Assembly: GCA_963733195.1 (NCBI GenBank) | Contig: CAVTCR010000074.1 | Span: 96,001 to 160,000, forward strand | Reading direction: 5' to 3' | Source: an uncultured delta proteobacterium | GTDB taxonomy: Bacteria > Desulfobacterota > Binatia > Bin18 | Length of the DNA: 64,000 nt | Shown: positions 22,478 through 59,443 of the stretch, in pieces | How the letters are laid out: every line of letters begins with the position of its first letter | Numbering within the stretch: the stretch's first letter is position 1 | The notes under the pieces: model-generated | Seen by the model: only the letters and a program-made list of their open reading frames with translations | What the model was told of the DNA's origin: nothing | Databases searched by the model: none | Program-made: the position numbers and the translations under genes

Positions 22478-25148
22478 CTATTCCTTTGCTTGATGAAGTA
22501 TGAGTCGGGATCGTATACGTAACCCGATCCGACGGGCAAGTCGCCCGAGTCGTTCTGGGAGTCGTCGCTGAAGTTCAACTCTCAACGCGTCACCCTCAGT
22601 AGCAAGCCGCTCCGTCTCTACCACGAGCCGTGCGCGTTCTTGTTCGAGATCCGTAATGTAACGTTGCTGATTCTCAATATGACGTTGCTGATTCTCAATA
22701 TGACGTTGCTGATTCTCAATGTGGGCTTTTTGCTCTTCCCACGATTTCCCTACCCGTTGTGAATCTGCCCATATTTGATCCTTCATCTGCTCCAGCTCTT
22801 GAATATACCGATATTGGTCCTCCCACGCCTTTCCCACCCGTTGCGCATCTGCCCATATTTGATCCTTCATTTGCTCTACCTCACGAATATAGGCAAGCTG
22901 GCGTTCGCTCTGCGCGTCAAGCGCAACGACACGGCGATGCCATTCAGCAAGGGCGTCAAGCGCATACTGCAGAGCTTTGGGTTCCTGTTTGCTCGCCGGT
23001 CGCTCGGCATAATGGTGGAGGGCATCCTGCCGCGCAAGCAGTGTCTCATCCACCTCGCGCTTAAATCGAAAGGCATGAGAGGCATTTTGTTGATGCCATC
23101 GATACAACAACAGCGGTTGGCTAATGAAACCAACATTTCCTTCCGCACATAGTTTCATCCACATGACATAATCACAAGCAAATCCCAACCGTTCATCAAA
23201 TTGTCCGATTTTTAACAAGTGTGCACGCCGTACCACTACCGCAGGCGCACAAATGCGATTGCGAAAGAGAAGCTGGTAAAAATAAGCCTTCCCAGCAATG
23301 ACACAATCGTCCACGGCATTGTCGATCCAGTCGATAGGTGGGTTCGGTGCCGCCGCCTCGATAAGAAACTCAACTGGAGGAGTGGACGAAAGCAATCGTT
23401 GGATCGGCGGCCAGCATCTCCACCTTTCTCGCTAGGTTTTCCGGTAACATGATATCATCCTGATGAAAGATACAAATATACTCGCCACGAGCTAAAGAGA
23501 GGCAGCGATTCCAGTTTCCAGGAATCCCGAGCTGTGTCTCGTTCTGGTAGATAGCAATACGGGGGTCGGTAAATGAACGAGCGATATCGAGCGTTGTGTC
23601 GGTCGATCCGTCATCGACAATCAATAATTCAAAATCCCTGAAGCTTTGCGAGAGAACACTCTCGATCGCCTCGGTCAAGAATGCTGCGCCGTTATAGGTA
23701 GGAATGCAGACACTCACAGAGATAGACTTCATCTCTTCGATCTGACGGCAGACAACGCTTTCTTTCCCTTCAGGAAGCGTCTGGAAAGTCTCGACACCTT
23801 GCTTACCTTCCTCTTTTGCAAAGGGGGGTTGAGAGGGGTCTTCGCATTGCGACGACAGAATCCCCTCACGCTGCGCATTTCCCTCTTTTTCCAAAGGAGG
23901 GAAATAAAGCTGCCCTTTCCGCTGTGTAATCACCTCTCCATAGATGTCCTCTATCTCGCTCGCATATTTTTCTATCGTCTTCACCGGCGGGACGGCCCTC
24001 CGTAAGCGCTCCAGGAATCCGGTATCCTTAATGCAGCGGGTGAGACAGCGTTGCAGATCTGCTGCATTCTCCGGCTCGAAGAGCAAACCATTAACACCAT
24101 CTTGGATGGCCTCAGTCAGCGCTCCCCGTCGTGCGGCAATCACCGGCATCCCAGCAAAAAAGGCTTCACGGACCAGAATTGAGAAGGTCTCCTCCCAGAT
24201 CATTGGCATGACTAAGACATCATGCCGCATCAAGATGTCACCAAGTTGGTCATGAGTATACGTTCCGCAGAATTTCACCGGGAGTTCTTTCGCGGTCTCG
24301 TGGAGTTGCGCGATGTATGTCGCCCACTGTGACCATTCGAGACCGTAGAGAGACACTTCCACAGCCTCGCTCGGCAGCCCCTTGAGTGCTTCGAGCAACA
24401 CGTGTGCACCTTTATGCGGGGCGAGGACTCCAACGTAGAGAATCCGTAATGGGGTACCAGATGGACGCGGAGAGCGTTCCTGTGTGACCCCTGGCACCGC
24501 CTTCACTCCAAGTGGGACCGCCCGCAACCGATCGGTCAAGAACGGGAAATATCCTCGCATCTTGTCAGCAAGAAAGACTGACGGCGTTATCACGACATCC
24601 GGGGCGTGCACTACCCTTTCCATGTCCGTAAACCGCTGACGGGCTTCCTCAGCCGAAGCCGACTCTTGCAGACACGCCACACACCGCTCACCCCGCTCCG
24701 GACCAGGACAAAGCCTCTGCTGCGCGTCCAGTAAATGCACGCGATGACAGGCAAAGAAAAAATCGTGCAAGCTCAGGACGGTCGGATAGCCAAGGGCTGG
24801 GGTAAGGCGGAGCAGACTTACAGAAAGATGTTGGGTGTGTTGGAAATGAACAATTTCGGGACGGACACGTTCCAACAGTTGGAGGAACGGACGATTGAGC
24901 CAAGGATTGTCATACAGCAGGCGAAACGAACCACTCCGCGTGTAGTTGTTCACTATACGGACTACTGGAAGGCCGCCAAACGTCTCGTCATGGACGGTTC
25001 CTTCCTCGGCGGTCGCGTCATACACCCGCGTTATGATACTCACCTCGTGTCCACGCTGTTGTAAAGCTTGCGACAGATGAAGCGTGACTAATTCCGTTCC
25101 CGTCCACTCATTCGGCGGGAAGCCGTGCACAACTTGTAAAATGCGCAT
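22478..25148 (-). CDS. Bifunctional GT4 + GT2 glycosyltransferase with repeat coiled-coil tail; one frameshift near 23375
   Basis: ORF 23370-25148 ends mid-GT2 (FHQDD...FVHSS). ORF 22478-23395 supplies the rest of GT2 (FDERLGFACDY) and the coiled coil. Confidence 0.85.
22661..22723. repeat. 3 x 21-bp tandem repeat encoding HIENQQR
   Basis: acgttgctgattctcaatatg twice, then acgttgctgattctcaatgtg. Confidence 0.95.
22729..22892. repeat. 2 x 84-bp tandem repeat encoding a 28-aa unit
   Basis: YIxExEQMKDQIWAD(A/S)QRVGK(A/S)WE(D/E)Q duplicated. Confidence 0.9.
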
Positions 25149-34121: not shown

Positions 34122-35351
34122 TCAACGAGCATCATGAGCAGCAAAGTTCGTAGTGGTCCTTGTCTCCTCTGTCCAGGTATGATCCAGGTGGAAGATGCCC
34201 CATTCTTTTTCGTCGGTCGCGATGGTGAAAGTTTGCTCAGTAACTTTCTGATAGTAGATATGTACCCCGTGTTCATCAAGTAAGAAAACAACAATTCGGA
34301 ATGATCCATTACTCAACAAAAGATTGGGAAAAGAAACAGTAACATTATAGGACAGCCGTCCAACAAATGGCCCACGTCCTTCTTTTAGGGTGGTCGTGGC
34401 AAAACAGGTCAAGTTATCGATACGGTCAATGGCAATGCCGAGATGAAATAAGCGATCCGGATGATCGCTTTTCCAGCGGACCTGCACACGCAACGACTCT
34501 CCCCGCTTCACCACCCGGACATTTTCCTGAAGAATGCCACCGTCAATGGCAACCTCTTCTATTTCACCACCGAGACGAAGGTCACGCCAGTGCTGTTCTG
34601 GTAGATGCTCTGTTTTCGCTTGCAGATAGGTTTCGTAGGCATTCACAACCTGTACAGTTGGCCCGTAGGCTTCAACCTGTCCGTTGCGCAACCATATCGC
34701 TTCCTGACAAAGCATATTGACGCTATAGAGTGAATGGGAACAGAGGAGTACACTCCCCCCCTTTGCCTGGAACGTACTGATGCGATCGATACATTTCTTC
34801 TGAAAGTAGCCGTCGCCGACCGCCAGGGCTTCGTCAACAATAAGCAGGTCCGGATCAACACTCACTGCAAGAGAAAAAGACAGTCGCATCCCCATACCAG
34901 TGGAATAGCTTCTGAGGGGACGGTGCAAAAATTTCCCCAGCTCCGAGAATTCTACAATTTCGGGCAGCTTCTCTTCCATTTGTTTGCGCGAGAAACCAAG
35001 CAGCGCTCCCCCGACGAAAAGATTTTCAAGGCCACTGAATTCAGGATGGAACCCAGTACCAAGCTCGATAATAGAAGCAACACGACCCTGAACACTGACC
35101 GTTCCGGTCGTTGGAGTGAGGACCCCCGTAATGAGTTTGAGAAGTGTCGATTTCCCAGCGCCGTTCTCTCCCAGAACCCCAAGGGATACCCCTTTTGGCA
35201 GGCTGAAACTCACGTTTTTGACAGCCCAGAAATCATCGTGATAATAGCGCCGCGAGAAAAGCTCTTTAAAGCGATCGATTGGATGCGCGTACAACCGATA
35301 ACACTTCCCCAGGTTGTTAACAGTCAACAGCGCAGAAGGCGACACGTGCAT
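34122..35351 (-). CDS. wzt: Polysaccharide ABC exporter ATPase with C-terminal Wzt-C-like domain
   Basis: GENGAGKST, YSTGMGMRL, VDEALAVGDGYFQKKC and a beta-rich C-terminal domain; likely ATG at 35351. Confidence 0.92.
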   Translation of the reverse strand: MHVSPSALLTVNNLGKCYRLYAHPIDRFKELFSRRYYHDDFWAVKNVSFSLPKGVSLGVLGENGAGKSTLLKLITGVLTPTTGTVSVQGRVASIIELGTGFHPEFSGLENLFVGGALLGFSRKQMEEKLPEIVEFSELGKFLHRPLRSYSTGMGMRLSFSLAVSVDPDLLIVDEALAVGDGYFQKKCIDRISTFQAKGGSVLLCSHSLYSVNMLCQEAIWLRNGQVEAYGPTVQVVNAYETYLQAKTEHLPEQHWRDLRLGGEIEEVAIDGGILQENVRVVKRGESLRVQVRWKSDHPDRLFHLGIAIDRIDNLTCFATTTLKEGRGPFVGRLSYNVTVSFPNLLLSNGSFRIVVFLLDEHGVHIYYQKVTEQTFTIATDEKEWGIFHLDHTWTEETRTTTNFAAHDAR

Positions 35352-35372
35352 TTCTGTAGCGACTTTGATGGC

Positions 35373-35401
35373 AAAAAAAAGGGCGGGGATGTTCCCCGCC
35401 C
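35373..35401 (-). terminator. Rho-independent terminator after the hidden secreted-protein gene
   Basis: Minus strand GGGCGGGG-AACAT-CCCCGCCC followed by T8. Confidence 0.88.
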
Positions 35402-35438
35402 ACGTGTTCACAACATAACGACCCGCAGCAATACGCAC

Positions 35439-36751
35439 TTACTCTGCGCCGGCTCCACCTTGGTAGTTCGTGTATTGCCGATGCGCTGGGAATAACGCAT
35501 CCCATCGCAAAATTCCGACCCAGGCCCAGGATACCTCACCGAAGTTGTTGGCAAACTGCAGCGAGTACGCCACCGCCTGAATCGGCGGTCGCTACCCCCC
35601 TGCTCCCCACGTCGCCCCATATACGGATCGTAGCCACAATAGCCAAACTGCCCACAGACAAACTTAATCCGGAACCACCCGCCCGGTGCTCCCGGCGTGA
35701 TGATCGCAGCCGTCGGCCGAAATTCACCTCATTCGGCAGGTTGAACGTCACCGAATGCGAATTCTCATCCTCGTCATACACCGCCAAGTTCAACGCTCGC
35801 CGCCGCCCCAGTGGTGTTGCGATCCTTCCACAACCATACCTCCGACCGCCCATTCAACTCCGTCGCACCGAAAAATACCGCACGAGCAAACTCAACGGCG
35901 AATCCGGCTCTGCCCCACCGGTTGCATCCGCATCTCCCGTCTGCGCCACGTCTCCGGCTGGCCCATCAATCCGCTCCCGGTTCAAGGTCGCCATACACAA
36001 AGCCAGCACCATTACACGACACTGGAGCTGAGGTCTGCAGGAACACAAGCTCCACCACCCTGCTCCTCAACACACCGCGTCAGATAAAACCCGTCTGAGT
36101 TCAGATAGCCGACTGGCGCCTGAACAGCCCCGTGACCAAAGCATGGACTAACTGCTTCAATGCTCACCGCATTGAACCCCGTCGCTGACCCGGCTGGCAA
36201 ATTCGACCAAGTACGAATGCCCGACTAAAATATTCCAGTCCCCGAACGGATACCCCGCTGCCCCGGAAATTAAACGTCGGCCCACTCACCACGTCCGCCG
36301 TCACATACCCTGCACAGAATGTTACACCATAGGACCGTCAACGACTCACCACACCCGTCGGTGCAGGCGCTATCACGGCGAGGTCACTCGCGACACTCCT
36401 GCCCACCAACCAGTAAGTCTAACAAACTGCACGAAAACACATCGTGCGGCGTCAAGCTGACACTAAAATCATAAATGTGCGCGAAGTCACACTCCAGATC
36501 GTGATATGCACCCATGTTGCGCCACACCACTGAAGCGCTGACGTTGTAGCACCTGCTGTGTTAGTCACCACCATCAACGTATCCTGCCACGAAAGCGGCC
36601 CCGGCGTTCGGATTAGACCTTGAAAAACGGAAATAATAATGTCGCCGCCGGTACATCATCCGGTATCCCAACCACCGCTCTCCCACGCCTACTACCCAAG
36701 AAGAATAGCCCTGCAACCAAAGTCACCACAGTCCTGCTCTCATTTTTGCAT
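35439..36751 (-). CDS. Secreted ~430-aa protein, candidate S-layer/major surface protein; heavily frameshifted as assembled
   Basis: Stitched across frames: signal-like VVTLVAGLFFLG, then VVGIPDDVPAATLLFPFFKV, QDTLMVVTNT, VHITIWSV, YDFSVSLTPHDVFSCSLLDLL, GYVTADVV, YPFGDWNILVGHSYLV, GFNAVSIEA, RERIDGP, SLLVRYF, EVWLWKDRN, AVYDEDEN, GGWFRIKF, IQAVAYSLQFAN, RWDALFPAHRQYTNYQGGAGAE*. AGGAGG RBS before ATG 36751. Function is inferred. Confidence 0.75.
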
Positions 36752-36907
36752 TACTCTGCCTCCTTCCTTCTAAAATGCCGTAAGGGAATTGCAATACCTC
36801 TTGTAACCAAATACTGCTCACACTGCGTTACTGCCCCGATCTGATAATTGAAGCTTATGCTCTCCGCTCAGCTAAGCCCACTCCGGGCCTCTCTCTCATA
36901 GCCCACA

Positions 36908-37381
36908 TCACCTCCTTTCCATGTCCGTGCCGTCACCATCACTCGGGAAGTGATGATACCACTGGCCTCTGTTCCTCACCCAACGTTCTGACATTGACGA
37001 GGACACAGCCCGAGAGAGCCCCGGCAAAAGATATTCCGCTTTCAACTCCACCTCCGCCTCATCTCCATTTTCCTTAATTGATTGAATCGTATACTTGGTG
37101 AAAACAATAGGCGCTGTGAGGATTTTCCTCAGGTAGGTTTGCTTATCAGGTACCCCTGGCGCTTCAAACTTATACGTTAATTCCGTTTTCTTTTCTATAC
37201 GTAGTTTCCAGTATTCTTTTACTCGCTCTTCTAAGCTGACCGGCTTTCCACCACACGAGGATGCTACCATGCCTAGGAGACTTAACGCAAACGCAATACG
37301 TACCGCCTTGCCGCTTTTGGATGAGCGCCCCTCTGCTTCATTATTCTGGCTGGGCATTCTTGTCAAGTGCAAACTACTCAA
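36908..37381 (-). CDS. Small hypothetical lipoprotein (NTF2-like fold possible)
   Basis: Hydrophobic stretch then ASSC lipobox; LEERVKEYW...ERWVRNRGQWYH. Confidence 0.7.
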   Translation of the reverse strand: MSSLHLTRMPSQNNEAEGRSSKSGKAVRIAFALSLLGMVASSCGGKPVSLEERVKEYWKLRIEKKTELTYKFEAPGVPDKQTYLRKILTAPIVFTKYTIQSIKENGDEAEVELKAEYLLPGLSRAVSSSMSERWVRNRGQWYHHFPSDGDGTDMERR

Positions 37382-37406: not shown

Positions 37407-38666
37407 CTACCGCCCTACCCACGCAATAATCTTTCCATCACCCTCGCCGGCATAGTTCGCCACAATCACATTCTGAGCGCTTTTCTCGCAGAGAAAAGCG
37501 CGAACTTTGTAGTTCCTTAATTTTTCCGATTCTGCAGCTGCTTGCAGCTCTTGGCGCTCAAACCAATTACCATCTGGTTGTTGGCTGTAGAGCTTCAATG
37601 TTCCGGTATACATACCAGCGGCAGCAATTTCTTTACGCCCATCTCCGTCAACGTCAGTGGCGGTTACGCCACTGACCCAAAAGACTTGCGGAAGCCCCTG
37701 CGAAAGGTTGTTCCACTGACTCCCATCCCAGCGGTACACACGCGGGCCACCATTCTGGTACATCGGCGCCCCGCCTACGCCCAACAACACTTCCGCTTTC
37801 TCATCGTTATCAAGATCAACGAGCTGGACGCTCCAGGCGATGATATGACTGGGTAACCCTTCTGCACTTACAGCATGCCATTTGCCATTGCCGTCGCTTA
37901 GCCAGAGAAACTGCGGTCGCGTATCATTGAGGCTCCCGGTAGCAATATCCGGAACGCCATCTCCATTCACTTCGCCAATTGCCACATCGTCGCCGAACAA
38001 TCCCCTAGAGCCTTCAATTCCTTCAAATCTCCATCCCGAGGCCTCATTCCAGAGAATCCCGAGACCTTGGGGTTCATCATTTGATTCTCTCCCCGGAGCT
38101 TCAGAAAGGGCCACGAGATCTACACGCCCGTCCTTGTTCATATCGGCAGTCACAATCGCCCGGGAGCGGAAGGTGCGAACGCTTTCCGGTACGTTCGACT
38201 GTTCCTCCCACGGCCCACACGGCCCTGTGCCAGTGTTACTAAAGATGCGAATGCCAGTTTCGTGCACAGCGATGGCAATCTCCATTTTCCCGTCTCCAGT
38301 AAAATCAGCGACGGTCACTCCGCCATATGCGTATTCCTGTTGAGGAAAGCCATTGTGCCCAACCCCCGTACACACCACCGGCTGCCAACGGTTTTCCCGA
38401 CGCAAAAAAATGTGCGGCCACGGTTCTTTGCTCTTGCGAGGTGGAGCAGTAATGAGGTCGAGTTCACCATCGCCATCCATATCAGCAAAAGTAAAATCCT
38501 GTCGCCACAGATCTCCGCTTGGCAGTCCATCAGCCGCAACTACCAGGCTCTTTGGCCCTCCTGGTGACGGAGCATCAGACGTACAGGCACACACGAAAAG
38601 TCCGGCGCTCATGAATACCAGCATGAGCGCAACTCCCAGTCTCCAACTCATCATCCTCCCATTCAT
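37407..38666 (-). CDS. FG-GAP/VCBS-repeat secreted protein or lipoprotein (beta-propeller)
   Basis: Repeated DxDGDGxxD Ca-binding motifs (DMDGDGELD, DFTGDGKME, DMNKDGRVD, EVNGDGVPD, DVDGDGRKE); signal peptide. Confidence 0.88.
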   Translation of the reverse strand: MNGRMMSWRLGVALMLVFMSAGLFVCACTSDAPSPGGPKSLVVAADGLPSGDLWRQDFTFADMDGDGELDLITAPPRKSKEPWPHIFLRRENRWQPVVCTGVGHNGFPQQEYAYGGVTVADFTGDGKMEIAIAVHETGIRIFSNTGTGPCGPWEEQSNVPESVRTFRSRAIVTADMNKDGRVDLVALSEAPGRESNDEPQGLGILWNEASGWRFEGIEGSRGLFGDDVAIGEVNGDGVPDIATGSLNDTRPQFLWLSDGNGKWHAVSAEGLPSHIIAWSVQLVDLDNDEKAEVLLGVGGAPMYQNGGPRVYRWDGSQWNNLSQGLPQVFWVSGVTATDVDGDGRKEIAAAGMYTGTLKLYSQQPDGNWFERQELQAAAESEKLRNYKVRAFLCEKSAQNVIVANYAGEGDGKIIAWVGR

Positions 38667-38693: not shown

Positions 38694-39494
38694 TTAGAGA
38701 AGATCGGCAAACTCAGGTTCCAGTCGTGAAAAGACCCAGTGCCCAGAGAGCAACACCACAGCCGTCCACACACAGGGCGTCCCCAAGTCCGCAAGAGCGG
38801 GCAGGGTCCCTTCAAGGAGAATGGCACGATAGGAAGAAACGATCGGGGTAAACGGATTCCAGTGCCACACGGTCATAAACCGGGAAGGAACATACGACAA
38901 CGGATAAATGATCGGCGTCAAGTAAAACCACACCATGAAAACCATCTGCAGGACCGGAAGCGTATCCCGCAACAGCGTCTGCACGCTCGCGGCGATCAGT
39001 CCAAACCCAAACGCGAGAGCCGTTTGTAAACATAACAATACCGGGAGGAGTGGCAGACTCACCCATGCCAGCCGTCCTGTCACTAATAGTGCGACAAGCA
39101 AGACGCTGAAACTGAGCACAGAAGCAACAAGACTTGCTAAGATACTGCTCACCACCAGCACCACGGTAGGGAAGCGCATGGCTTTGACTAAGCTCGCATT
39201 ATCGATAATCGCCGTTGCCGCCTTGGTAACGCCTTCCTGAAAACCAAGCCACGGCAGAAGGCCGGCCAAGAGGTAAAAAGCAAACACTCCATGCCCGGCT
39301 TCAGTGGTAAACTTCACTTGCAGGATTGTGGAGAAGACAAACATATAGACCAAAAACAATAAGAGTGGCTGAAGGATTGCCCATGCCAGGCCAAGAACGG
39401 ATCCAGCGTAGCGAGCTCGGAGATCGCGGCGGACGAGCCCGGCAATCATCACTCGGTGTGTCCACATCTGCGCGAACATAAACATCTTCCCCAC
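38694..39494 (-). CDS. wzm: Polysaccharide ABC exporter permease
   Basis: RDLRARYAGSVLGLAW, FYLTPIIYP, NP motif, FADLL C-terminus. Confidence 0.93.
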   Translation of the reverse strand: MGKMFMFAQMWTHRVMIAGLVRRDLRARYAGSVLGLAWAILQPLLLFLVYMFVFSTILQVKFTTEAGHGVFAFYLLAGLLPWLGFQEGVTKAATAIIDNASLVKAMRFPTVVLVVSSILASLVASVLSFSVLLVALLVTGRLAWVSLPLLPVLLCLQTALAFGFGLIAASVQTLLRDTLPVLQMVFMVWFYLTPIIYPLSYVPSRFMTVWHWNPFTPIVSSYRAILLEGTLPALADLGTPCVWTAVVLLSGHWVFSRLEPEFADLL

Positions 39495-39539: not shown

Positions 39540-41256
39540 TTAGCCACTCTTTGCTTCGAGCATTCGCCGTTTATCTGCCCAGCGTGCTTCTGCTTCTTTG
39601 TCGCCACGCTCTTTTGCCACTGCTTCCAATCCTGCATACACTCCCGGAGAGTTTGGCATCAACGCCGCAGCCTGTTGGAAAAATTGCTCAGCAGTATCGA
39701 TATTTTTGAGCGCCAGGTTGACCCAACTGAGGAGATAGATGACACGAGGATTGCGCGGCGCAATTTGTTGCGCCTGAGACGCATAGTGAAAGGCTTGGCC
39801 GTAGTGGCCACTCTCAAAAGCGAGTTCTCCCAACCCAACAACGGCACCAGAGTGTTGAGGAGTAATGGCAAGTGTCTCCGCGAATTCGCGTGCAGCATCG
39901 GAGAATCGTTTTTGCCTTTTGTATACACCAGCGAGGTTATAGTGTCCCCGTGCGCTTTGCGGTGCGGTCCGAGTCACGACCGACCAAAAAGTTTCTTCGT
40001 TTACCCAATCACGATTGCGTACAATCGTCCTTAAGACTGCTCCTGTCAGCAGTGCCAGCACGAGTCCATACGCCGTTGCAGCTCGTATGCGTTCCCATCC
40101 TTGTCTCTTCGCTAGCCCTACACCACACAGCGCATCAAGCAGCACTCCGACGATTAAACAAAAACCAAACAACGGAACATAGAGATAATGTTCAGCAACG
40201 ATCTCTTTGATAGGAATAATATGCGAGAGCGGAAGAATGCTCACCAGCATCCACAACCCGCCATACCCACAGAGTGGAAACCTGCGCGCGAGCAGCGTCA
40301 AGCCGCCAGCAATACTCACAAGGATACCGAGAGCAAGCAACACGTCGGGTTGAGCGAATGAGGATGAGGCCGGAAAAGCATTGTACGAGTAATCGGCAAG
40401 GAGCGTACGTGGAAACACCATCAGACTCAGATCGTGGACCCAGATCCGCGCGACTGTGGCAAAATTCCCTTCGAGGCTCCCTCCGTACCACACCGAATTT
40501 CGAATGGTTGCCAAAAGGATCGCGCCGGAAAAATGCCACAACACTGCGCCCCCTAAAAGCAAGACGAAGAAATAGACTGCCCAACGCCGGCGGAGGGAGG
40601 CAACAACGCCTTCGTGCTGAACATCGTAGAGCCAGCACAGAAGGGGAAGGACGATCGCGCTTTCTTTACTAAGAATCCCGAGCCCATACGCAACACACGA
40701 CAACAACAGCCAGCCATAACGCCACCCGCTCGCACCCTCTGCGGCCCGAAAACGTAAGTAGGCCCACAGGCCGCAAAAGACACAGAGTCCGCCGAGGATA
40801 TCGCGCCGACCGGAAATGTACGTAACCGCATCGGTCAGTACAGGATGCAGCGCCCACAAGGCAGCAACAAACACGGCAGGACGCCACCGCCATTCGTTCT
40901 CAGGAATCACTGTCGTCGGCTGCGATTGCGTGCCCGATCTAGAGTTGGTTAGTCGGAGGGTAATAAAAAAGACGAAACAGGCAGAGAGCCAGTGATAGAA
41001 AAGATTGCTCAGGTGCAGCACCCACGGCTGCATCCCACCCACGCGCACATCGACGATGTAGGACAGATTACGAAACGGCCGATAGCCGAGAGATGTCGGT
41101 GACATGAGAAAGTGCGACAATGGACTGCGAACTCTGCACCACCGGATTCTCTACGACTAACATGTAGTCATCAAAAACAAACTCATTGCTCAGGGCATTG
41201 TAATAAGCAGCACCAATCGCCGCGGCAAGCACGAGACACACCAACAACTTCTTCAT
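39540..41256 (-). CDS. TMTC-like GT-C membrane protein with C-terminal TPRs; frameshift near 41120
   Basis: N-terminal FVFDD in the small upstream ORF, then YRP, ALHPVLTDAVTYISGR, SKESA, AEHYLY, RNRDW and TPR helices. Confidence 0.82.
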
Positions 41257-41287
41257 CACCTCCACCTCTCATGAATGGGCGACACGA

Positions 41288-43639
41288 CTAGCGCGCCTCT
41301 GACTTATCCGGCAGTGAAGGCTGGTTCTGGCCCCCAGGAGTCGGAATCGCCGATTCATCAACCTGCAGACGCACCTTCGGTTTCTGTATCCGACCGAGAA
41401 GCCCCTTGAGTCCCTGGATACGTTGCTCGAATTCCTCTGTGACCGATCGCGCCTCTTGGCGGTTACGAATCACATGTGGGGTAATCAGGATGATTAACTC
41501 CGTCCGATCGACCCGGTCGCTTTCCGTACGAAAGATCCGGCCAAGCACGGGTACCTCCATCAAGAATGGGACACCCCTGCGAATCCGCCGGATTTGATCG
41601 TCAATAATGCCACCAATGAGTACCGACTCTCCATTCTGCACGACTACAGTCGTCTCCGTTTCGCGCGAGGTGAAGCTCGGCGAGTTGGTATTGCCAAATA
41701 TGGCATCTCCTACCGCACTGACTTCTTGGCGAATTTCCATATTCACCAGGCCAGCCGAGTTGATCTGCGGCATAATCGTCAAAATCTTCCCGGTATCGCG
41801 ATACTGAATGCTGTTTGAGACGAATGGGTCCGACGAGTTAAGATTCGTTGACGTCGAGGTTAAGATTGGTATTTCCTCACCAATCAGAATATGGGCTTCT
41901 CGATTATCTGCTGCAATTACATGTGGCGTGGCAAGACTTCTCACGTTCGAGCGGGCCGCTAAGGCATTAATGAGTACCAAAAAAGTGTCACGGTCAGTAA
42001 TGAACGAAAACAGTCCGCCCCCGCCTATTTTCGCCGCTCGTTTTGCAGAATCGAGAAGCGCATTGTCAGAGATTAACCTCGACGTCGCCCCAGGGGTGGT
42101 GGTTGTACCATCTCCATCATCATGTCCCTGTCCCAAGGAGCTTGATCAATACCGCCGTTGGCAAGTGCCCATTCTACCCCAAACTCAAGGTTGTCTCCAA
42201 GACCTATCTCGGCAATGATCGTCTCGATCAGTACCTGTCGGGGCACGACATCAATCTGACGCAGCACTTCCTTGATCATGCTGTAGTCTCGTGCCGTCGC
42301 AAGCACAACGAGTGAGTTTGTACTCTCGTCGGCGACGATACGGACTTCTTCCTTAAAGATCGGCTTTTCGCCTTCTTTGGGTGCAATGAGAATCGTTTGG
42401 GACCCACCACCTATCGCCCCACCACCGGGACCTCCGCCACGGCTACCACTGCGGCCCCCCTGCCACCCCCTAATCCACTACTGCTTCCGCCACCTAATCC
42501 ACTACTGCTAGTCCGCCACTACTCTCCCACGGCTGCTGCGCCCGCCGAATCCCCCTGACCCTGACCGCGTGCTCCCAGTCGACCCGCTCAGCCCTGTCTC
42601 TCCCAATCCAACCACCAATACCTCCCGCTGTACCTTGCTGGGCGCCTCTCCGGCCACTACTTCCCCCACCTCCCCCTTCAGCGCCGTAGAGCTGTCCAAG
42701 TACTTCGGCCAGGTCCACCGCTTTCGTATTCTCAACCGCATACACATGCACGGTTCGCCCACCACCTTTTTCCGGCGGTACGTCAAGCACTTTGACCCAC
42801 TTCCGTACTTCTGCGAGGATCTCTTTGTTAAATGCGATAACGACTATGGAATTCAACCGGGTCATTGGAATAACAAAAACGCCGCGTTCATTCGCTGCTT
42901 TTGGTGTTACCCCATACGGTTCAAGCACGCCTTTAAGTTCGTCTCCGAGATCTTCAACATTTGCGTTCTCGATGCGAAACACCTCTGGATACAAATTACG
43001 AAACATGTCGATATCAAACATCCGCGCGAGCTCTTTGAGACGCCCCACATTTGATGCGATGTCAGAGATAATCACTAAGTTCGCCCGCGGATAGGCAATC
43101 ACATCTCCGCCTGGAGAAACAAAAGGTTGCAGGACTTTTGCCATTTCTTCAGCTGCCAAGTGATCGACTTTCATCAGCTCTATGACAAATCGGTCCTCAG
43201 CATTCGCAGCGCGTTGCTCAGTTGCCGTATCAGTCACTTCGGCTCGTGTTTTCCCCTCACCGACCGGGGCGATTTGATAGAGATTCCCCACTTTGACAGC
43301 GGCAATACCATTCGCACGTAAAATTTGATGGAAGATCGGAAAGAGATCCCGACCTGCGATACGTCCACTGGTGCGAATAGTGACTTGCCCTTGCACTCGA
43401 GGATCAATGGTGTAGCTAATCCCCAGCGCAGTGGCGAGGCTGTGGATGACCTCGCGGATATCCGCTCCTTCAAAGTTCAGCACAACCGCTTCGTCTCCAC
43501 TTGTCGCTTCACGTCCAGCCGCGGGAGGCGCTGGTGGAGGCGCTGGAGCAGCTTCCCCTTCTTGGGCCATCACTCGAGTTCCCTGTATAAGCCAAGCGAT
43601 GGCAATAGCAATCAGCGGTATCAACCTCTTACCCCTCAT
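41288..43639 (-). CDS. gspD: Type II secretion secretin, split by several frameshifts (about 42150-42620)
   Basis: N0 VLNFEGADIREVI; N-domains; Gly-rich linker; QVLIETIIAE; secretin core YRDTGKIL, GESVLIGG, RTELIILITPHVI. Confidence 0.9.
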
Positions 43640-51335: not shown

Positions 51336-51453
51336 ACCCCGGTCTCAATGGCGGAGGGGCCACACCCGTTCCCATCCCGAACACGGCCGTTAAGCCCTCC
51401 AGCGCCGATGGTACTACGGTGTATGCCGTGGGAGAGTAGGACGAGGCCGGGGT
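51336..51453 (+). rRNA. rrf: 5S ribosomal RNA (orphan)
   Basis: Terminal helix ACCCCGGTCTC/GAGGCCGGGGT; conserved CACCCGTTCCCATCCCGAACACGG, GCCGATGGTAC, GGGAGAGTAGG. Confidence 0.95.
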
Positions 51454-51468
51454 TTCTCTTTTTGGTAA

Positions 51469-51540
<72 letters not shown>

Positions 51541-54888: not shown

Positions 54889-55233
54889 ATGTTGATCTTG
54901 CTCATCCACTGGTTGTTGAGCGCCCTCAGTCTGATGATGGTCGCCGCTTTGATTCCCGGGTTTCAGGTGCAGAACTTCATGGCCGCGCTCCTCGCTGTTG
55001 TCGTCATCGGTTTGATCAATGCGACGTTGGGACTGCTCCTCAAAGTCCTGACCTTCCCCCTGACGATTGTCACTTTTGGCTTGTTTCTGTTGGTCATCAA
55101 TGCCCTCATGTTACGCTTCGCCGCCGCGTTTGTGCCTGGCTTTACGGTGAACGGATTCCTGCCAGCTTTTTGGGGCGCGCTCGTCCTCGCGCTTGTCAGC
55201 ATGGTCCTGCGTGCGGTCGTCTTGCAGAAATGA
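54889..55233 (+). CDS. YvlD-like 4-TM membrane protein (phage holin superfamily IV)
   Basis: LTFPLTIVTFGLFLLVINALML...VPGFTVNGF motif; GAGGAG RBS. Confidence 0.88.
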   Translation: MLILLIHWLLSALSLMMVAALIPGFQVQNFMAALLAVVVIGLINATLGLLLKVLTFPLTIVTFGLFLLVINALMLRFAAAFVPGFTVNGFLPAFWGALVLALVSMVLRAVVLQK

Positions 55234-55577
55234 AAGGGGTGATAAGCTCCACAACCCATCCGCCACCGGAGCTGGTGTCAGAGCAGAGAGAGTCTGCTAA
55301 ACGAGCATTACGAACTGTTCCGACAACGATCTGACTGACGGCATTGTCAACTTGTTAATGCGATTCCCGGCAAAGGTTGAGGAGCATCGAGCCGAGAGGA
55401 TATAGGCAGTCGTGCGAGAACGACTCACGCCCTGGAGGTCTCGATGCCCTATCCAAGAGCAGAGAAGCGGGTCAGATACTTTACTCAAGCCGTAGGTGGC
55501 CATTGATGAGGCGCTCAAAGTCCTGCATTCTCTACCCTACCCGATGCTCTTTCCGCTAACCCGTTGACACTTAAATA

Positions 55578-55621
55578 AGGCGGCGACCGGATTCGAACCG
55601 GTGAATGGAGGTTTTGCAGAC
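55578..55621 (-). repeat. tRNA-Cys(GCA) 3'-half fragment, att-like site 2
   Basis: Reverse complement gtctgcaaaacctccattcaccggttcgaatccggtcgccgcct gives anticodon loop to acceptor end; 5' half absent. Confidence 0.88.
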
Positions 55622-55667
55622 AAAAAACAGACTGTGATATAGAGGTAAACAGAGAGTGATAGAAGAC

Positions 55668-55696
55668 GAAAAGGCCCGGAGTATCCGGGCTTTTTC
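55668..55696. terminator. Bidirectional terminator-like hairpin next to att site
   Basis: gaaaaggcccgga-gta-tccgggctttttc. Confidence 0.6.
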
Positions 55697-55748
55697 ACGC
55701 CTACTGTCTTCACTGTATTTCCCGTATTCGTTAGTCTCACACGTGAAC

Positions 55749-55768
55749 AACTACCCAAATAACTACCC
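55749..55768. repeat. Direct repeat AACTACCC x2, possible integrase arm-type sites
   Basis: aactaccc-aaat-aactaccc, about 130 bp inside the att site. Confidence 0.45.
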
Positions 55769-55797
55769 TTGTGACTAACTGAGCGGTGGGGTTACGC

Positions 55798-56050
55798 TTA
55801 CGATAGACTTCACGGCGATGGCCGATTTTGATCACCAGGACAAGCAGACTTGTCGTGGATCTCGTAAAGTACCCGATAGTCTCCCACCCGAAGACGGTGC
55901 ACGTTCCCATCTCCCTTCAGCTTCTTAATACCTGAGGGCCGTGGGTTCACTTCCAGCTGCGTAGGGCTTGACGATGCGTGTTTGGATGTAGGGGGAAAGA
56001 GCAGCGAGGTCACGCTTCGCCCGGTTTGACAGTTAGACCGTGTAGGCCAC
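55798..56050 (-). pseudogene. RelE/ParE-family toxin, disrupted
   Basis: VAYTV*LSNRAKRDL...NPRPSGIKKLKG...RLRVGDYRVLYEI...VIKIGHRREVYR with an in-frame TAA and frameshifts. Confidence 0.8.
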
Positions 56051-56052
56051 TG

Positions 56053-56316
56053 TTACGCTCTGATTCCCAACTCTTTCACATGTTCGTCAAGGGCGTGGTC
56101 TTGTCGCCTTCGGCTCGCATTCCTCTTTGGCGCACGAAAATCTTCTACGTCTAGCCGATCGTCCAATTCTTCCAAGCGGGCAAGGTCTTCTAGGGGGACC
56201 AGGGCAGCGACAGCCTTCCCACGGCGATGCACAACAACTCGTTCCCGCTTGGTCACTACGCGAGACAGGGAATGGGAGAAAGTTTCTTGGCGTTTTTGGG
56301 TAGTGGGACGGGGCAT
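56053..56316 (-). CDS. Phd/YefM-family antitoxin, possibly frameshifted
   Basis: FSHSLSRV...ERVVVHRRGKAVAALVPLEDL; directly upstream of the toxin. Confidence 0.78.
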   Translation of the reverse strand: MPRPTTQKRQETFSHSLSRVVTKRERVVVHRRGKAVAALVPLEDLARLEELDDRLDVEDFRAPKRNASRRRQDHALDEHVKELGIRA

Positions 56317-56490
56317 AGGCTTTATCTCCTTGCAGCTTTGTGCCTTATACCACAGAGAATACAAAGAGGAGAACAGTTCATTGGCCTATCGTTAGTTCCG
56401 CTTCCAGTGGATGCTCCTTACGAAAACGGCTCACACCACGAATGGTAAACCCCAATACATTTCCTTGCTCATTCACGCGCTCCATCATAG

Positions 56491-57445
56491 GGTTGTGTCA
56501 ACTTTCAGGCCAAGGACGCTGTACAAGAATATAACCCTCTTAGGGATCGACTTCTTAGGCAACCGCCAATGTTGTCAAGATAATCCGCATCCGGCCCAAA
56601 GGAAGTGCCCGTTGCCACGCTAACGACATCGATTCATTCCGCTGTGACCGTACGCGGAAGACATGGCGCATCTCGTCGTAGACCCGACAAAACCGCGCTG
56701 CCGACACGACACTCTTGAAGCCCCCCATCGACCGCGTCCGCTGTTTGATTCCTCGATGGTCCTGCTCCAGATGATTATTCAAATAGCGGTTCGTGCGATG
56801 GGTCACGGCTTCCCCCAATTCCGCTTTGAAGGCGCCGGGGTATGAGCCATGGCCAGCAGTCGTAACCCGGTCGGGACGACCTCGGTGACAGTTCGGGCAG
56901 AATGGAAGAATGCCTCGGCGGCTACCTGATCTTGTCGCTCGCTCAGCAACACATCGACCAGGTTATCGTCTCGATCAATAGCCCGATAGAGGTAGGCCCC
57001 GGGGCCCTTCACTTTGAGATAGGTCTCGCCACAATACCAGCTCCGTCCCCCCTGCCGTGCCGATGCTTGCGGAGGATCTCACTCAGCACGGGTGCCAGCT
57101 TGGCTTCCCACTCCCGCACCGCTTCGTGGGTGAAGATGAGGCCTCGCTCAAGGAACATCTCGGCCAAGTCGCGTAAGCTCAGTTTGTACCGGATACGCCA
57201 CAGGATCACTAAACAGATGACATCCGTGGGGTACTGCAGGCGATTAAACAGCGTGCCCGTCCGTTCATTAAATCCCCCCTCGCAGGTCCGACAGCGAAAG
57301 CGTTGGTAGCCCAGCTCTGTACGTTCTGGGCGCTCGGTGATTGCGGACGACTGGCAGTGAGGGCAGTCCATCCCACCTCCTCTCCGAAACCGAATCCTAT
57401 CTCCTCCCACCAACTTCGCCAATTGGCACGCAACCTGACAGAACC
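56491..57445 (-). mobile_element. IS6-family insertion sequence with frameshifted transposase (56555-57371)
   Basis: Terminal IRs ggttgtgtcaactt / aacctgacagaacc; MDCPHC zinc finger, LSLRDLAEMF, YLYRAIDRD, YLNNHLEQDHRGIK. Confidence 0.9.
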
Positions 57446-57516
57446 CAGAACAGAGGGCACCGTTGCCGATGCCCCCGTAAGACAACCCTGGGTGGTAATG
57501 GACGTGGTGTGAGCGG

Positions 57517-58908
57517 CTACGGTACTCTGTTCATTTCCACAAACCGCAAGGCTCGATCCAAGACGTCCGTCTGTACGTTAAAGATCCCTCCTCCAGTGTT
57601 TCCGACTGTACAAACACCCTCGGAGAGGCCGTTGACGCCATTAATAGTACACTGGCCGCAGATGGCATGAGGGATATTCATCCACGAGTTGGCCAGTTCG
57701 CCAGAAAGAACGAATGAACTGCGGGGCCCGCTTGTGGCTCTCCCCCAACGGTATTCTGGATACACACCTTCTGGTTATTGGCCGTACTAAAGGTGCTGTT
57801 CCAGGCATGCCAATCCCCTGGAACGTTAGGGAGCGGGTTATCGATGTCATTGAACCATGCCAAGGTCCCATTTTCTCCATCTTGGCACGTCCCGTCGATG
57901 GGCGCCCCCAAGATTTTCACCGCGTTGAAGGCCGGGGCGTGCTCTAAACTCCTTGATCAAGCCCAGGGCCAGACAGCCGCCACGACTATGACCGGCAATA
58001 ATAATTTGTTTCAGGTCCGCGGGGGTAACCTTGGTCTTCAGCCAATCGAATAAGCCCTGGCGAATTTGGGCTCTATAGGGAGAACCCCAATCATACTGGT
58101 GATCAGGAAAAGCCACGGCAAAGGTGTTATTTGGATTGATATTCATACCCGGTGGTGCACCGAGTAATCGCCCGACAAACGACGCGGCGCTAAAGGCTTG
58201 CGTTCCACAATTCTAATCATTGCACGCATCTTGCCAGTGATTCGGCTGCCCCGTGATATTGCCGGGACCGCCCCCGACGACGCCGCCACTGCTCACTCCA
58301 TTCTGCCCCGCCAGCGCAATCAGTAAGGTTCGGGTATTGGCCGCCGGAGGTTCCGCCCAGATGGCGTAGCGCGTGCGGTGGATCTCCCAATTCCCGACGC
58401 CGGCCGCGCGCAATTGCGGAATCGTGTCATGGTAACAATCGCAATACCCAATGGCCCTGCCACTTATACGAGGCATTCGGGCAGACATTCGAACAGAAAC
58501 CGGCATACGTGGTTTTCTCTGTCGCCCTCTGGATCAGGAGCGAAGGTCCCCAGCCAGAGGGCACTGGTCCCGTCTGGCGATCATAATCATATTGTCAGAT
58601 CATACGATGTCAGTGATCCTAGTACGAAGGCTCGCCTCGGTACGCATCGGCTGGCTCATGATGGTTACAGGGGCTGGGCGGGAGTCTCGGCAAAAACGGG
58701 ACACATGACGCAAGAAAAACCGCGCCAATACCCTAATTTTCATCGCCCAGGTGTCTGCTTATCATATCGACAAGCCGGGCGTAGGGGGCGAGGATTGCTC
58801 ATGGCTACGCCTGGGGGAACCGCGAGCCGCAAAGCTCAGCAGCATCAGGGCGAACGTAGCGCGACGGCCCAGGAGCCCTTGTCCTGAGTGGTAATGCTGC
58901 GTTTTCAT
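57517..58908 (-). pseudogene. Secreted Cys-containing alpha/beta hydrolase, multiply frameshifted
   Basis: AAGGAG + MKTQH...signal-like stretch; fragments LLIALAGQ, IIIAGHSRGG (nucleophile elbow), APIDG, IPHAIC. Joining of the 5' part is uncertain. Confidence 0.6.
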
Positions 58909-59006
58909 TGAAGTCTCTCCTTTTAACCGAGCAGGGGCTAGAGTTGTAGGTGAAAGTCCTCGATAGTGCAAAAGCGGAAACTGACACTGGAAACGGCGAT
59001 GGGCCG

Positions 59007-59296
59007 TTAGGCCTGCGGCGGTCTCTCTAGGTCCCGCGTGGTGACGACTCCTACGGTGGCTTCGCGCGGACGATGGTGAGTCACCTGCGTGCAAGAATGC
59101 CAGCGTTCCTCGGGCGAGTGAAAAGCGCGGAGCGCGGCCCGAGACCATATGCTCGACCCGGCCGTTGACGCGCAGTGGCCGTGGCGGCCGTCGCCATCCG
59201 GAACTGCACGACAAAGGCCCGACGGGGCGACAGGAGCGACTCCTCGGCGGATCCCAGGCGTGCTCGCCGTGCGAGGTACAAGCGTGATTCACTCAC
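59007..59296 (-). CDS. Small conserved hypothetical protein, frameshifted
   Basis: Stitched LSPRRAFVVQFR...GRVEHMVSGRA.RF...LAFL; divergent from the STAND regulator; ends approximate. Confidence 0.5.
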
Positions 59297-59443
59297 TGAT
59301 TGACATTTCTTTTCGTCATGTCGTCAGCCTACGCATCGCCGCCGTTGAATGCGAGATGCACATGCGTTGAGTTTGCGTGGAGTTTGCGTTGATTTTCCGT
59401 TGAGTTTTCGCTACAAGAGCGGAGTCGAGCGGAAGGAGGCCAC

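What the first reader, a model, noticed from the sequence alone, without database searches (positions are those of the whole stretch)
35439..36751. Hidden ~430-aa secreted protein missed by the ORF track, with hallmarks of a highly expressed S-layer-like gene
Seen: the apparent 1.4-kb gap is one minus-strand gene when stitched across frames (signal peptide, IPDDVPAATLLFPFFKV, GYVTAD, DWNILVG, AVSIEA, VYDEDE, GGWF, paired cysteines). It has an AGGAGG RBS, a 156-bp upstream spacer, a perfect terminator right after the stop, and a visibly G/T-rich coding strand unlike its neighbours. From memory, the DxVPAATLLxPxFxV N-terminus recurs in uncharacterised secreted proteins of other environmental bacteria. 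Inference: an internal terminator in mid-cluster lets this gene be expressed far above wzt and the GT genes, as expected for the structural cargo.
Basis: partly seen in the sequence, partly recalled or inferred. Interest (0 to 1): 0.8.

Follow-up and report, generated by a model that had tools for sequence, protein, structure and literature searches.

The report
Real gene scrambled by assembly errors
The gap holds a genuine gene for a secreted protein of unknown function, probably a dimer, in a sugar-export and secretion cluster of soil bacteria; it most likely looks broken only because this genome assembly carries many small insertion and deletion errors.

Summary
Window 35439-36751 (minus strand) is a full-length copy of a ~420-440-aa signal-peptide protein family found in Candidatus Binatia MAGs. 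The family has no Pfam, NCBIfam or PDB sequence match. The copy can only be read by switching frame at least 13 times and passing 3 stops.

The breaks are most likely consensus errors of this assembly, not decay.
- The stitched reading keeps 135 of 139 conserved family residues. Simulated decay with substitutions loses many more.
- All 12 copies in 7 related genomes have no frameshift, including 5 syntenic ones.
- 6 informative public contigs from three other studies differ from the window by the length that restores the frame.
- The same assembly also breaks both EF-Tu genes, rpoB, rpoC and rpsG. EF-Tu is intact in two relatives.

So is the G-rich coding strand.

The protein models as two beta-sandwiches, the first like TM1070/ASRT (Z 9.4). 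A predicted homodimer buries the conserved motifs. 'S-layer-like, highly expressed' remains unproven.

The parts
35439..36751 (-). Gene X: syntenic copy of an uncharacterised Binatia secreted-protein family (~435 codons). As assembled it is readable only with at least 13 frame changes and 3 stops.
   Evidence: frameshift-aware alignment; 54 of 55 invariant and 81 of 84 near-invariant residues kept; intact orthologs
36759..36764 (-). AGGAGG ribosome-binding site, 7 nt upstream of ATG 36751-36749
   Evidence: The same arrangement (AAGGAGG, 7 nt, ATG) is seen in the G002 ortholog in the alignment.
36752..36907 (-). 156-nt spacer between the upstream lipoprotein-like gene and gene X. It holds several indel differences against public contigs.
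   Evidence: indels at 36755-36803 against X1 and X4
35373..35401 (-). Intrinsic terminator (9-bp stem, 8 G-C pairs, loop of 3, T8), 37 nt after the stop and 21 nt before the likely wzt start at 35351
   Evidence: An equivalent hairpin (11-bp stem plus T-run) follows the ortholog in G002.
34122..35351 (-). wzt (ABC_tran plus a weak Wzt_C match). The listed ORF start at 35438 over-extends across the terminator; homology to G002 begins near 35339.
36908..37381 (-). Small protein with no family match; lipoprotein-like by my reading of its N-terminus, not tested. It is conserved directly upstream of gene X.
37407..38666 (-). FG-GAP repeat protein, conserved in the cluster
38694..39494 (-). wzm (ABC-2 type transporter permease)
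39540..41268 (-). TPR plus PMT_2-like (GT-C type) membrane protein. Its N-terminus is in another frame near 41130 in this assembly.
41288..43639 (-). GspD-type secretin, a single 801-aa frame in G002. Here it is split into three pieces in two frames across a Gly/Ser-rich repeat (about 42110-42600).

Best explanation
Window 35439-36751 (minus strand) is a genuine, probably intact-in-vivo gene. It is the syntenic copy of an uncharacterised Binatia family of ~420-440-aa signal-peptide proteins. The family gene sits between a lipoprotein-like gene and wzt, inside a conserved cluster: secretin, TPR/GT-C protein, wzm, FG-GAP protein, lipoprotein-like gene, gene X, wzt, then glycosyltransferases. Type II secretion genes lie upstream.

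The 13 or more frame changes and 3 stops are most likely small insertion/deletion errors in the consensus of this metagenome assembly, locally very dense, and not evolutionary decay.

Shown: the gene, its signals, its intact relatives, indel-dominated damage, and broken essential genes in the same assembly.

Inferred function (about 35-40%): after Sec export the protein forms a symmetric homodimer through its conserved motifs (IPDDVP, NILxGHxYLVNLPAGS, VYDEDE, GGWF, RWDAxFPAHRQYT). It is a non-enzymatic, glycan-associated extracellular or periplasmic structural protein. Either it is cargo of the adjacent type II secretion genes that becomes decorated with the Wzm/Wzt-exported glycan, or it is a lectin-like binder of that glycan through its TM1070/ASRT-like first domain. 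Its own RBS and terminator allow expression independent of wzt.
For: Gene and family.
- One intact paralog in the same genome: C71:28746-30065, 439 aa.
- 142 homologs at E<=0.001, named only 'hypothetical protein'.
- The intact syntenic ortholog in sister genome G002 lies between the same neighbours.
- The order lipoprotein-like gene, X, wzt was found in 9 of the 20 loci compared, representing about 5 genomes because 4 pairs of those loci look like the same contig. G002 shows the same order.

Artefact.
1. The stitched reading keeps 54 of 55 invariant and 81 of 84 near-invariant residues. Intact copies mostly keep 127-139 of 139; two divergent syntenic copies (G020, G006) keep 112 and 114.
2. 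Simulation: 14 random indels on the intact ortholog (baseline 133) leave 129-131 conserved residues. Adding 14, 42 or 130 substitutions leaves 123-129, 121-125 or 101-110 (6 replicates each). The damage here is therefore indel-dominated, unlike neutral decay.
3. Of 16 family copies examined, the 12 in 7 other genomes have 0 frameshifts (one has a single stop). The 4 copies in this assembly have 13, 7, 1 and 0.
4. All 7 public contigs laid over the gene, from 3 runs of 3 studies, differ from the window in net length by exactly the predicted frame correction, modulo 3. Six of them cover 7 of the 13 sites. Applying the differences listed for X1 gives a single 84-codon frame that matches the family consensus.
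5. The same assembly breaks essential genes:
   - both tuf copies, with 1 and 2 shifts;
   - rpoB, in 3 frames;
   - rpoC, in at least 2 frames;
   - rpsG, in 2 frames.
   tuf is intact in G002 and G010.
6. Four other genes of the syntenic 30 kb are split here and none is split in G002. Three ABC_tran domains are split here against none in G002.

Function.
- AF2 model: pLDDT 84.8, pTM 0.86, two beta-sandwich domains.
- The N-terminal domain matches TM1070 (1nc7, Z 9.4, rmsd 2.8, 112 of 116 residues aligned) and ASRT (2ii7, Z 6.2).
- Homodimer prediction: score 0.76 against a best control of 0.00. This mark was reached by 20 of 30 solved homodimers and 1 of 23 single chains. The three runs agree in at least 78% of contacts, and partner pLDDT is at least 78.
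- The predicted interface holds 24 of 50 invariant residues, against 9.8 expected.
- Context: type II secretion genes F, G, L/M-like and D, plus wzm/wzt and many glycosyltransferases.
Against: - The reads from which this assembly was made were not available, so the consensus errors are inferred, not seen.
- The break density here (about 10 per kb) is 10-50 times that of the rest of the window (about 1 per 5 kb). That excess is unexplained.
- Only 5 of 13 sites lie near a homopolymer of 4 or more bases, against a 21% background.
- One paralog (C71) is intact in the same assembly.
- For the RNA run X4, the table lists no indel at 35586, 35591 or 35623. Some window states may therefore be shared by a natural population, although the net length of that contig fits a restored frame.
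- The alignment procedure chooses frames that favour conserved residues, which inflates the retention count somewhat. The simulation controls for this.
- The functional reading rests on context, a predicted fold and a predicted dimer only. The dimer alignment was my own, so the calibration holds only roughly.
Confidence: 0.8

Rival explanations
1. A true, strain-specific pseudogene. This lineage has inactivated the syntenic copy, along with two other paralogs, and the frameshifts and stops are real mutations.
For: Three of the four copies in this genome are broken. Closely related public contigs carry in-frame versions, so the window's state is private to it. The break density is far above the assembly's background. 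The sites are not clearly homopolymer-linked.
Against: The damage is indel-dominated, with 135 of 139 conserved residues kept. Simulations with even one substitution per indel tend to lose more. Essential genes (tuf x2, rpoB, rpoC, rpsG) are broken in the same assembly, so broken frames here cannot be taken at face value. The RBS, the terminator and strong third-position codon bias are all preserved.
Confidence: 0.12
2. A functional gene decoded by programmed frameshifting, or a phase-variable contingency gene switched by slippage.
For: Many frame changes sit in an otherwise well-conserved coding sequence. The locus encodes a surface-related protein.
Against: Thirteen shifts of mixed sign and size, with no shared slippery motif or simple repeat at the sites. 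All 12 relatives are single-frame. DNA contigs of other populations, not only RNA, carry the in-frame versions.
Confidence: 0.02
3. Not a protein gene at all: a structured non-coding RNA or an accidental G-rich spacer.
For: There is no long ORF and the composition is unusual.
Against: There is no Rfam match: only one hit at E=1 in the region, and only 5S rRNA and a tRNA elsewhere in the window. The full-length collinear match to a protein family scores 959, against 1172-1292 for intact close copies.
Confidence: 0.01

Closest known systems
Interrupted ORFs from indel errors in long-read metagenome assemblies
   Same: Genes with well-conserved residues are fragmented by 1-2-nt indels, essential genes are also hit, and relatives are intact. 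PMC9426551 (passages read) says fragmented ORFs from uncorrected indel errors are common in MAGs with low short-read coverage, and uses interrupted ORFs as the indicator. The proovframe preprint (10.1101/2021.08.23.457338, abstract in the listing only) describes the same problem.
   Different: The sequencing technology of this assembly is not known to me. The error density in this one gene is 10-50 times the local background, and the sites are not clearly homopolymer-linked.
TM1070 / Anabaena sensory rhodopsin transducer (ASRT) beta-sandwich superfamily
   Same: The first domain of the model (residues 33-199) superposes on 1nc7 with Z 9.4, rmsd 2.8 and 112 of 116 residues aligned, and on 2ii7 with Z 6.2. 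De Souza et al. 2009 (PMC2739507, abstract read) argue that this superfamily binds small molecules, most probably sugars, and includes extracellular lipoprotein versions.
   Different: There is no sequence-level membership: no Pfam family among the 87 family members at E<=1 apart from scattered chance hits, and no PDB sequence hit. Identity to 1nc7 is 14%. Here the domain is fused to a second beta-sandwich, carries a signal peptide and is predicted to dimerise.
S-layer glycoprotein loci with ABC-transporter-dependent glycan synthesis (recalled from the Paenibacillus/Geobacillus literature; no call)
   Same: A secreted structural-type protein gene sits beside wzm/wzt, many glycosyltransferases and methyltransferases, and a GT-C-like membrane protein. 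It has its own terminator.
   Different: No S-layer, SLH or other anchoring domain was detected. No evidence of lattice formation or glycosylation. The cluster also carries type II secretion genes, which those loci lack as far as I recall.

Membership tests
Assembly artefact (indel-interrupted ORF) | The frame is restored by 1-2-nt changes without loss of conserved residues | tested here: met
   13 shifts; 135 of 139 conserved residues kept. The simulation shows this fits indel-only damage.
Assembly artefact (indel-interrupted ORF) | Essential single-frame genes of the same assembly are broken in the same way | tested here: met
   tuf x2, rpoB, rpoC and rpsG are split. tuf is intact in G002 and G010.
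Assembly artefact (indel-interrupted ORF) | Independent sequence of the same or close populations is in frame | tested here: met
   All 7 laid contigs fit the predicted correction modulo 3; 6 of them cover shift sites. The X1 version translates as one frame.
Assembly artefact (indel-interrupted ORF) | The source reads disagree with the consensus at the indel sites | not testable with these tools
   The assembly's own reads were not identified or laid. The runs laid were other populations.
True pseudogene | Relaxed constraint: substitutions accumulate along with indels, including at conserved residues | tested here: not met
   54 of 55 invariant and 81 of 84 near-invariant residues are kept. 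Simulated decay with 42 or more substitutions keeps at most 125 of 139.
S-layer protein | A recognisable S-layer or cell-wall anchoring domain | tested here: not met
   No Pfam or NCBIfam family in P0001 or in the 87 members.
S-layer protein | Very high expression and abundance | tested here: inconclusive
   The third-position G/T bias leans toward tuf, but GroEL, the ribosomal-protein genes and the G002 ortholog lack it. Contigs cannot rank expression.
S-layer protein | Self-assembly into a two-dimensional lattice | not testable with these tools
   Only a homodimer was modelled: 0.76 against a best control of 0.00.
ASRT/TM1070 superfamily | Shared beta-sandwich fold | tested here: met
   1nc7: Z 9.4, rmsd 2.8, 112 of 116 aligned. 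2ii7: Z 6.2. Foldseek's top hit is 1nc7_D, E 7.9e-5, TMt 0.68.
ASRT/TM1070 superfamily | Sequence-profile membership | tested here: not met
   No ASRT family hit in any of the 87 members at E<=1. The profile gave no PDB sequence hit at E<=1.
Type II secretion substrate | Sec signal peptide and genetic linkage to T2SS genes | tested here: inconclusive
   An N-terminal hydrophobic helix followed by AQA is seen by inspection and in the model; no signal-peptide predictor was available. The T2SS F, G, L/M-like and D genes lie 5-12 kb upstream. No secretion assay is possible.

The most novel reading that the evidence does not exclude
Gene X encodes the major secreted surface protein of these Binatia. 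It would be a self-associating two-beta-sandwich protein that is exported by the adjacent type II secretion genes. It would also be decorated with, or bound to, the glycan delivered by the neighbouring Wzm/Wzt transporter and GT-C/TPR protein. On this reading its tuf-like codon bias reflects very high expression, and its tendency to break or scramble assemblies in several MAGs reflects strain-level hypervariability under phage or predator pressure. That would make it a previously undescribed S-layer-like glycoprotein system in an uncultured phylum.
Probability: 0.15. Interest if true: 0.6.

Novelty: new member of a known kind. Interest (0 to 1): 0.33.

Why it matters
The practical lesson concerns this genome: a broken reading frame here is not evidence of decay. 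Essential genes are scrambled in the same way, so any 'pseudogene', 'hidden gene' or 'recoding' reading from this assembly needs an outside control.

Biologically, the gene belongs to an undescribed but conserved secreted-protein family.
- The core family has 23 representative clusters at E<=1e-30. Its N-terminal domain occurs in about 1200 clusters, often repeated in large extracellular proteins.
- One subfamily is a fixed component of a type II secretion plus Wzm/Wzt glycan cluster in Binatia.
- A predicted conserved dimer interface and an ASRT-like fold give concrete, testable hypotheses for a phylum with no cultured members.

Tried and rejected
- **Rfam.** Nothing relevant in the region or the window.
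- **Genome-wide ORF-free gaps as an error measure.** Not discriminating, because spurious ORFs of 90 aa or more abound at this GC content.
- **Homopolymer link.** 5 of 13 sites lie within 6 nt of a run of 4 or more bases, against 21% of gene positions. Not significant.
- **Strong GC skew predicting ORF fragmentation.** 6 of 29 top-skew windows have less than 450 of 900 nt in one frame, against 19% of 300 random windows. No link.
- **G3 bias as a general expression marker.**
  - The other ORFs with extreme GC3 skew look like mobile-element genes. This is my reading.
  - One separate high-skew window was tested and is a DDE_3 transposase.
  - Most other high-skew windows have no family hit.
  - So the skew is not a clean expression marker.
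- **RNA coverage.** Contigs of the single RNA run laid (X4) cover pieces of gene X and the upstream genes but none of wzt (34900-35385). With contigs of one run this cannot be used as evidence of a drop at the terminator.
- **Many runs holding 9-29% of the words.** 20 rows, 15 studies, 7 of them RNA. Small shares say nothing firm about habitat or expression.
- **Foldseek bicupin, vicilin and lectin hits.** These have TM-scores of 0.09-0.22 over the whole model and were not taken as relatives.
- A mistaken query (60 nt of a locus instead of the intended family). It is irrelevant.
- **Family rows left out of the frameshift count.** Short fragments at contig ends (G001:C655, C762, C1182; G010:C46, C92, C165, C182) and weak hits (G014, G020:C116, G021, G038).

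Full report
**Observation.** Between wzt and a small upstream gene, window 35439-36907 has no ORF above 110 aa on either strand. On the minus strand the three frames each carry pieces of one protein.

- AGGAGG at 36764-36759, 7 nt before ATG 36751;
- a 156-nt spacer to the upstream stop;
- TAA at 35441-35439;
- a 9-bp, 8-G-C hairpin with a T8 tail at 35401-35373.

Rfam finds nothing here.

**It is a real gene family.** The same genome holds three further copies. One of them, C71:28746-30065, is a clean 439-codon frame.
- That protein has 142 homologs at E<=0.001. The best are about 410-450 aa, from Candidatus Binatia or 'Deltaproteobacteria bacterium' MAGs, and all are called hypothetical.
- It has no Pfam, NCBIfam or PDB sequence match.
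- A profile search of 1.84 billion representatives gives 23 clusters at E<=1e-30 and 1211 at E<=0.001. Most of the distant ones match only the N-terminal domain, often up to four times in proteins of 700-1900 aa.
- Of 16 such distant proteins scanned, 3 carry PKD, BACON or P-domain modules and 13 carry nothing known.

**How broken is the window copy?** I aligned the DNA to a profile of 80 full-length members while allowing frame changes. The whole profile (424 columns) is matched from 36752 to 35442, with 13 frame changes (+1, +2 or -1 nt) and 3 in-frame stops. Further small indels exist. Against the sister genome's ortholog, one base is missing between the RBS-proximal ATG and the next ATG. 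There is also a compensated pair at 35508/35532.

**Relatives.** The frameshift-aware alignment was run on 16 copies.
- The 12 copies from 7 other genomes have no frameshift; one, G002:C9, has a single stop.
- The 4 copies of this assembly have 13, 7, 1 and 0.
- The syntenic ortholog in sister genome G002 is an intact frame between the same neighbours.
- The order lipoprotein-like gene, X, wzt recurs in 9 of the 20 loci compared, which represent about 5 genomes. Four of those syntenic copies were in the set and are intact, as is G002's; L039 was not tested.
- In two short-read-like MAGs (G001, G010) the contigs simply end inside this gene.

**Independent reads.** No public run holds more than 29% of the sampled words of this stretch. 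I laid Logan contigs of three DNA runs and one RNA run.
- In X1 the flanks are close: 7 differences in 588 nt of wzt. But the contigs break inside the gene.
- Seven contigs were laid over the gene. Six of them overlap a predicted shift site and together cover 7 of the 13 sites.
- All seven differ from the window in net length by exactly the correction the alignment predicts, modulo 3.
- Applying the differences listed for X1 to 35439-35690 turns three frames and a stop into one 84-codon frame that matches the family consensus.
- Other populations therefore carry in-frame genes, and the window's state is private to it.

**Pseudogene or artefact?** Two lines favour artefact.

First, the damage is indel-dominated.
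- The stitched reading keeps 54 of 55 invariant and 81 of 84 near-invariant residues.
- That equals or exceeds intact copies: the intact paralog and the syntenic ortholog each keep 133 of 139.
- Putting 14 random indels into the intact ortholog leaves 129-131 conserved residues.
- Adding 14, 42 or 130 substitutions leaves 123-129, 121-125 or 101-110.
- Neutral decay, in which substitutions normally outnumber indels, does not fit.

Second, this assembly breaks genes that cannot be broken.
- Both EF-Tu genes have 1 and 2 shifts.
- rpoB is in three frames, rpoC in at least two, and rpsG in two.
- EF-Tu is intact in G002 and in both copies of G010.
- In the 30 kb syntenic with G002:C36, four other genes are split here: a two-domain (GT4 + GT2) glycosyltransferase (826 aa in G002), the TPR/GT-C protein, the secretin, and a GSU2086-family protein. 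None is split in G002.
- Three ABC_tran domains are split here against none in G002.
- Two earlier follow-ups on other pieces of this genome reached the same view. I tested it independently here.

What remains unexplained is the local density, about 10 breaks per kb against about 0.2 per kb nearby. It is not clearly homopolymer-linked. Cross-mapping between paralogs during polishing, or strain heterogeneity in this gene, are plausible causes but were not tested.

**Composition.** The coding strand has G 0.44 and C 0.17 at third positions.
- This skew of +0.44 is matched by none of 1975 long open frames.
- The 900-nt window over the 5' part of the gene ranks about 13th of 68,721 for GC skew.
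- The only stronger coding case found is EF-Tu: G3 0.68-0.70 here and 0.61-0.62 in G002 and G010.
- GroEL, the rpo genes and the ribosomal-protein genes are unbiased. The syntenic G002 ortholog has G3 0.21.
- The bias is real and resembles tuf, but it is not established as a marker of expression.

**Protein.** An AlphaFold2 model of the intact paralog, built with 87 sequences, has pLDDT 84.8 and pTM 0.86. It shows an N-terminal helix followed by two beta-sandwich domains.
- Residues 33-199 match TM1070 (1nc7, Z 9.4, rmsd 2.8, 112 of 116 aligned) and ASRT (2ii7, Z 6.2). All other matches are at Z 5.1 or below and are generic sandwiches, lectins and carbohydrate-binding modules. Foldseek agrees on 1nc7; its bicupin hits have very low TM-scores.
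- The ASRT superfamily has been argued to bind sugars (PMC2739507, abstract).
- A two-copy prediction scored 0.76 against a best control of 0.00. This mark was reached by 20 of 30 solved homodimers and 1 of 23 single chains. The three runs agree in at least 78% of contacts, and partner pLDDT is at least 78.
- The predicted interface (81 of 413 residues) holds 24 of 50 invariant residues against 9.8 expected, p about 1e-6. It includes the IPDDVP, GGWF, VYDEDE and RWDA...FPAHRQYT motifs.
- The conserved motifs are therefore better explained by self-association than by catalysis. This is a model, not a measurement.

**Context and mechanism.** These genes lie upstream of gene X on the same strand:
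- type II secretion genes F and G;
- a PilM/PilN-like fusion;
- type II secretion gene M;
- a GspD-type secretin;
- a TPR plus PMT_2-like membrane protein;
- wzm;
- an FG-GAP protein;
- a lipoprotein-like protein.

Downstream lie wzt, with a weak Wzt_C match, and a long run of glycosyltransferases and methyltransferases. The terminator between X and wzt is conserved in G002.

My best reading, at about 35-40%, is a Sec-exported, dimeric, non-enzymatic protein that works with the exported glycan. It would be either secreted cargo that becomes glycosylated or a lectin-like binder of the glycan. S-layer status is not shown: there is no anchoring domain, no lattice test and no expression measurement.

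**Verdict.** The gene is real and belongs to an undescribed family. Its scrambled state is most likely (about 0.8) an assembly artefact. The expression and S-layer reading remains a hypothesis with modest indirect support.

Noticed in passing
window 41288-43639 (-): The GspD-type secretin is one 801-aa frame in G002. Here it is split into three pieces in two frames across a Gly/Ser-rich repetitive stretch (about 42110-42600). This is probably the same kind of assembly error.
   Followed up: partly
window 22478-25148 (-), about 41130, about 50500: Three more genes are single frames in G002 but split here: a two-domain (GT4 + GT2) glycosyltransferase (826 aa in G002; break near 23375), the N-terminus of the TPR/PMT_2 protein, and the N-terminus of a GSU2086-family protein.
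   Followed up: partly
G000:C71:130700-146000: Both EF-Tu genes, rpoB, rpoC and rpsG are frameshifted in this assembly. The two tuf copies share one break at the same codon position. tuf has an extreme third-position composition (G 0.68-0.70, A 0.02-0.05) that the adjacent ribosomal-protein and rpo genes lack; it is conserved in G002 and G010 (G3 0.61-0.62).
   Followed up: partly
window 55000-62200: A region of gene remnants. It holds an IS6/IS240-type transposase in two frames (56555-56818 and 57009-57485), a Phd/YefM antitoxin (56053-56364) and an esterase-like gene in three fragments (57517-58146). A large Trans_reg_C plus AAA_16 regulator is split over at least four ORFs (59349-62190). 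Whether these are real decay or assembly errors was not tested.
   Followed up: partly
window 36628-36678 joined to 35439-35487 (run X1, record 2): A 268-nt public contig joins the 5' end and the 3' end of the gene, with 171 other letters between them in place of about 1190 nt. It could be a short allele, another paralog or an assembly-graph chimera. Two X2 contigs also replace 35984-36048 by 33 other letters, which suggests a variable loop.
   Followed up: no
window 36429-36475 and G000:C71 paralog: A stretch of about 47 nt (encoding LTPHDVFSCSLLDLLV) is identical between the window copy and the C71 paralog, although the genes are otherwise about 70% identical. This may reflect gene conversion or strong constraint.
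   Followed up: no
window 51338-51540 (+): A 5S rRNA and a tRNA stand alone here, without adjacent 16S or 23S genes in the window.
   Followed up: no
L041 / G020:C139: A record titled Candidatus Methylomirabilota carries the same cluster, and the genome tool places it in the same family as this genome. The title and the placement disagree.
   Followed up: no
G000:C7:78401-79300: The strongest GC-skew window of the genome is a long Glu-Arg (ERERER...) low-complexity open frame.
   Followed up: no
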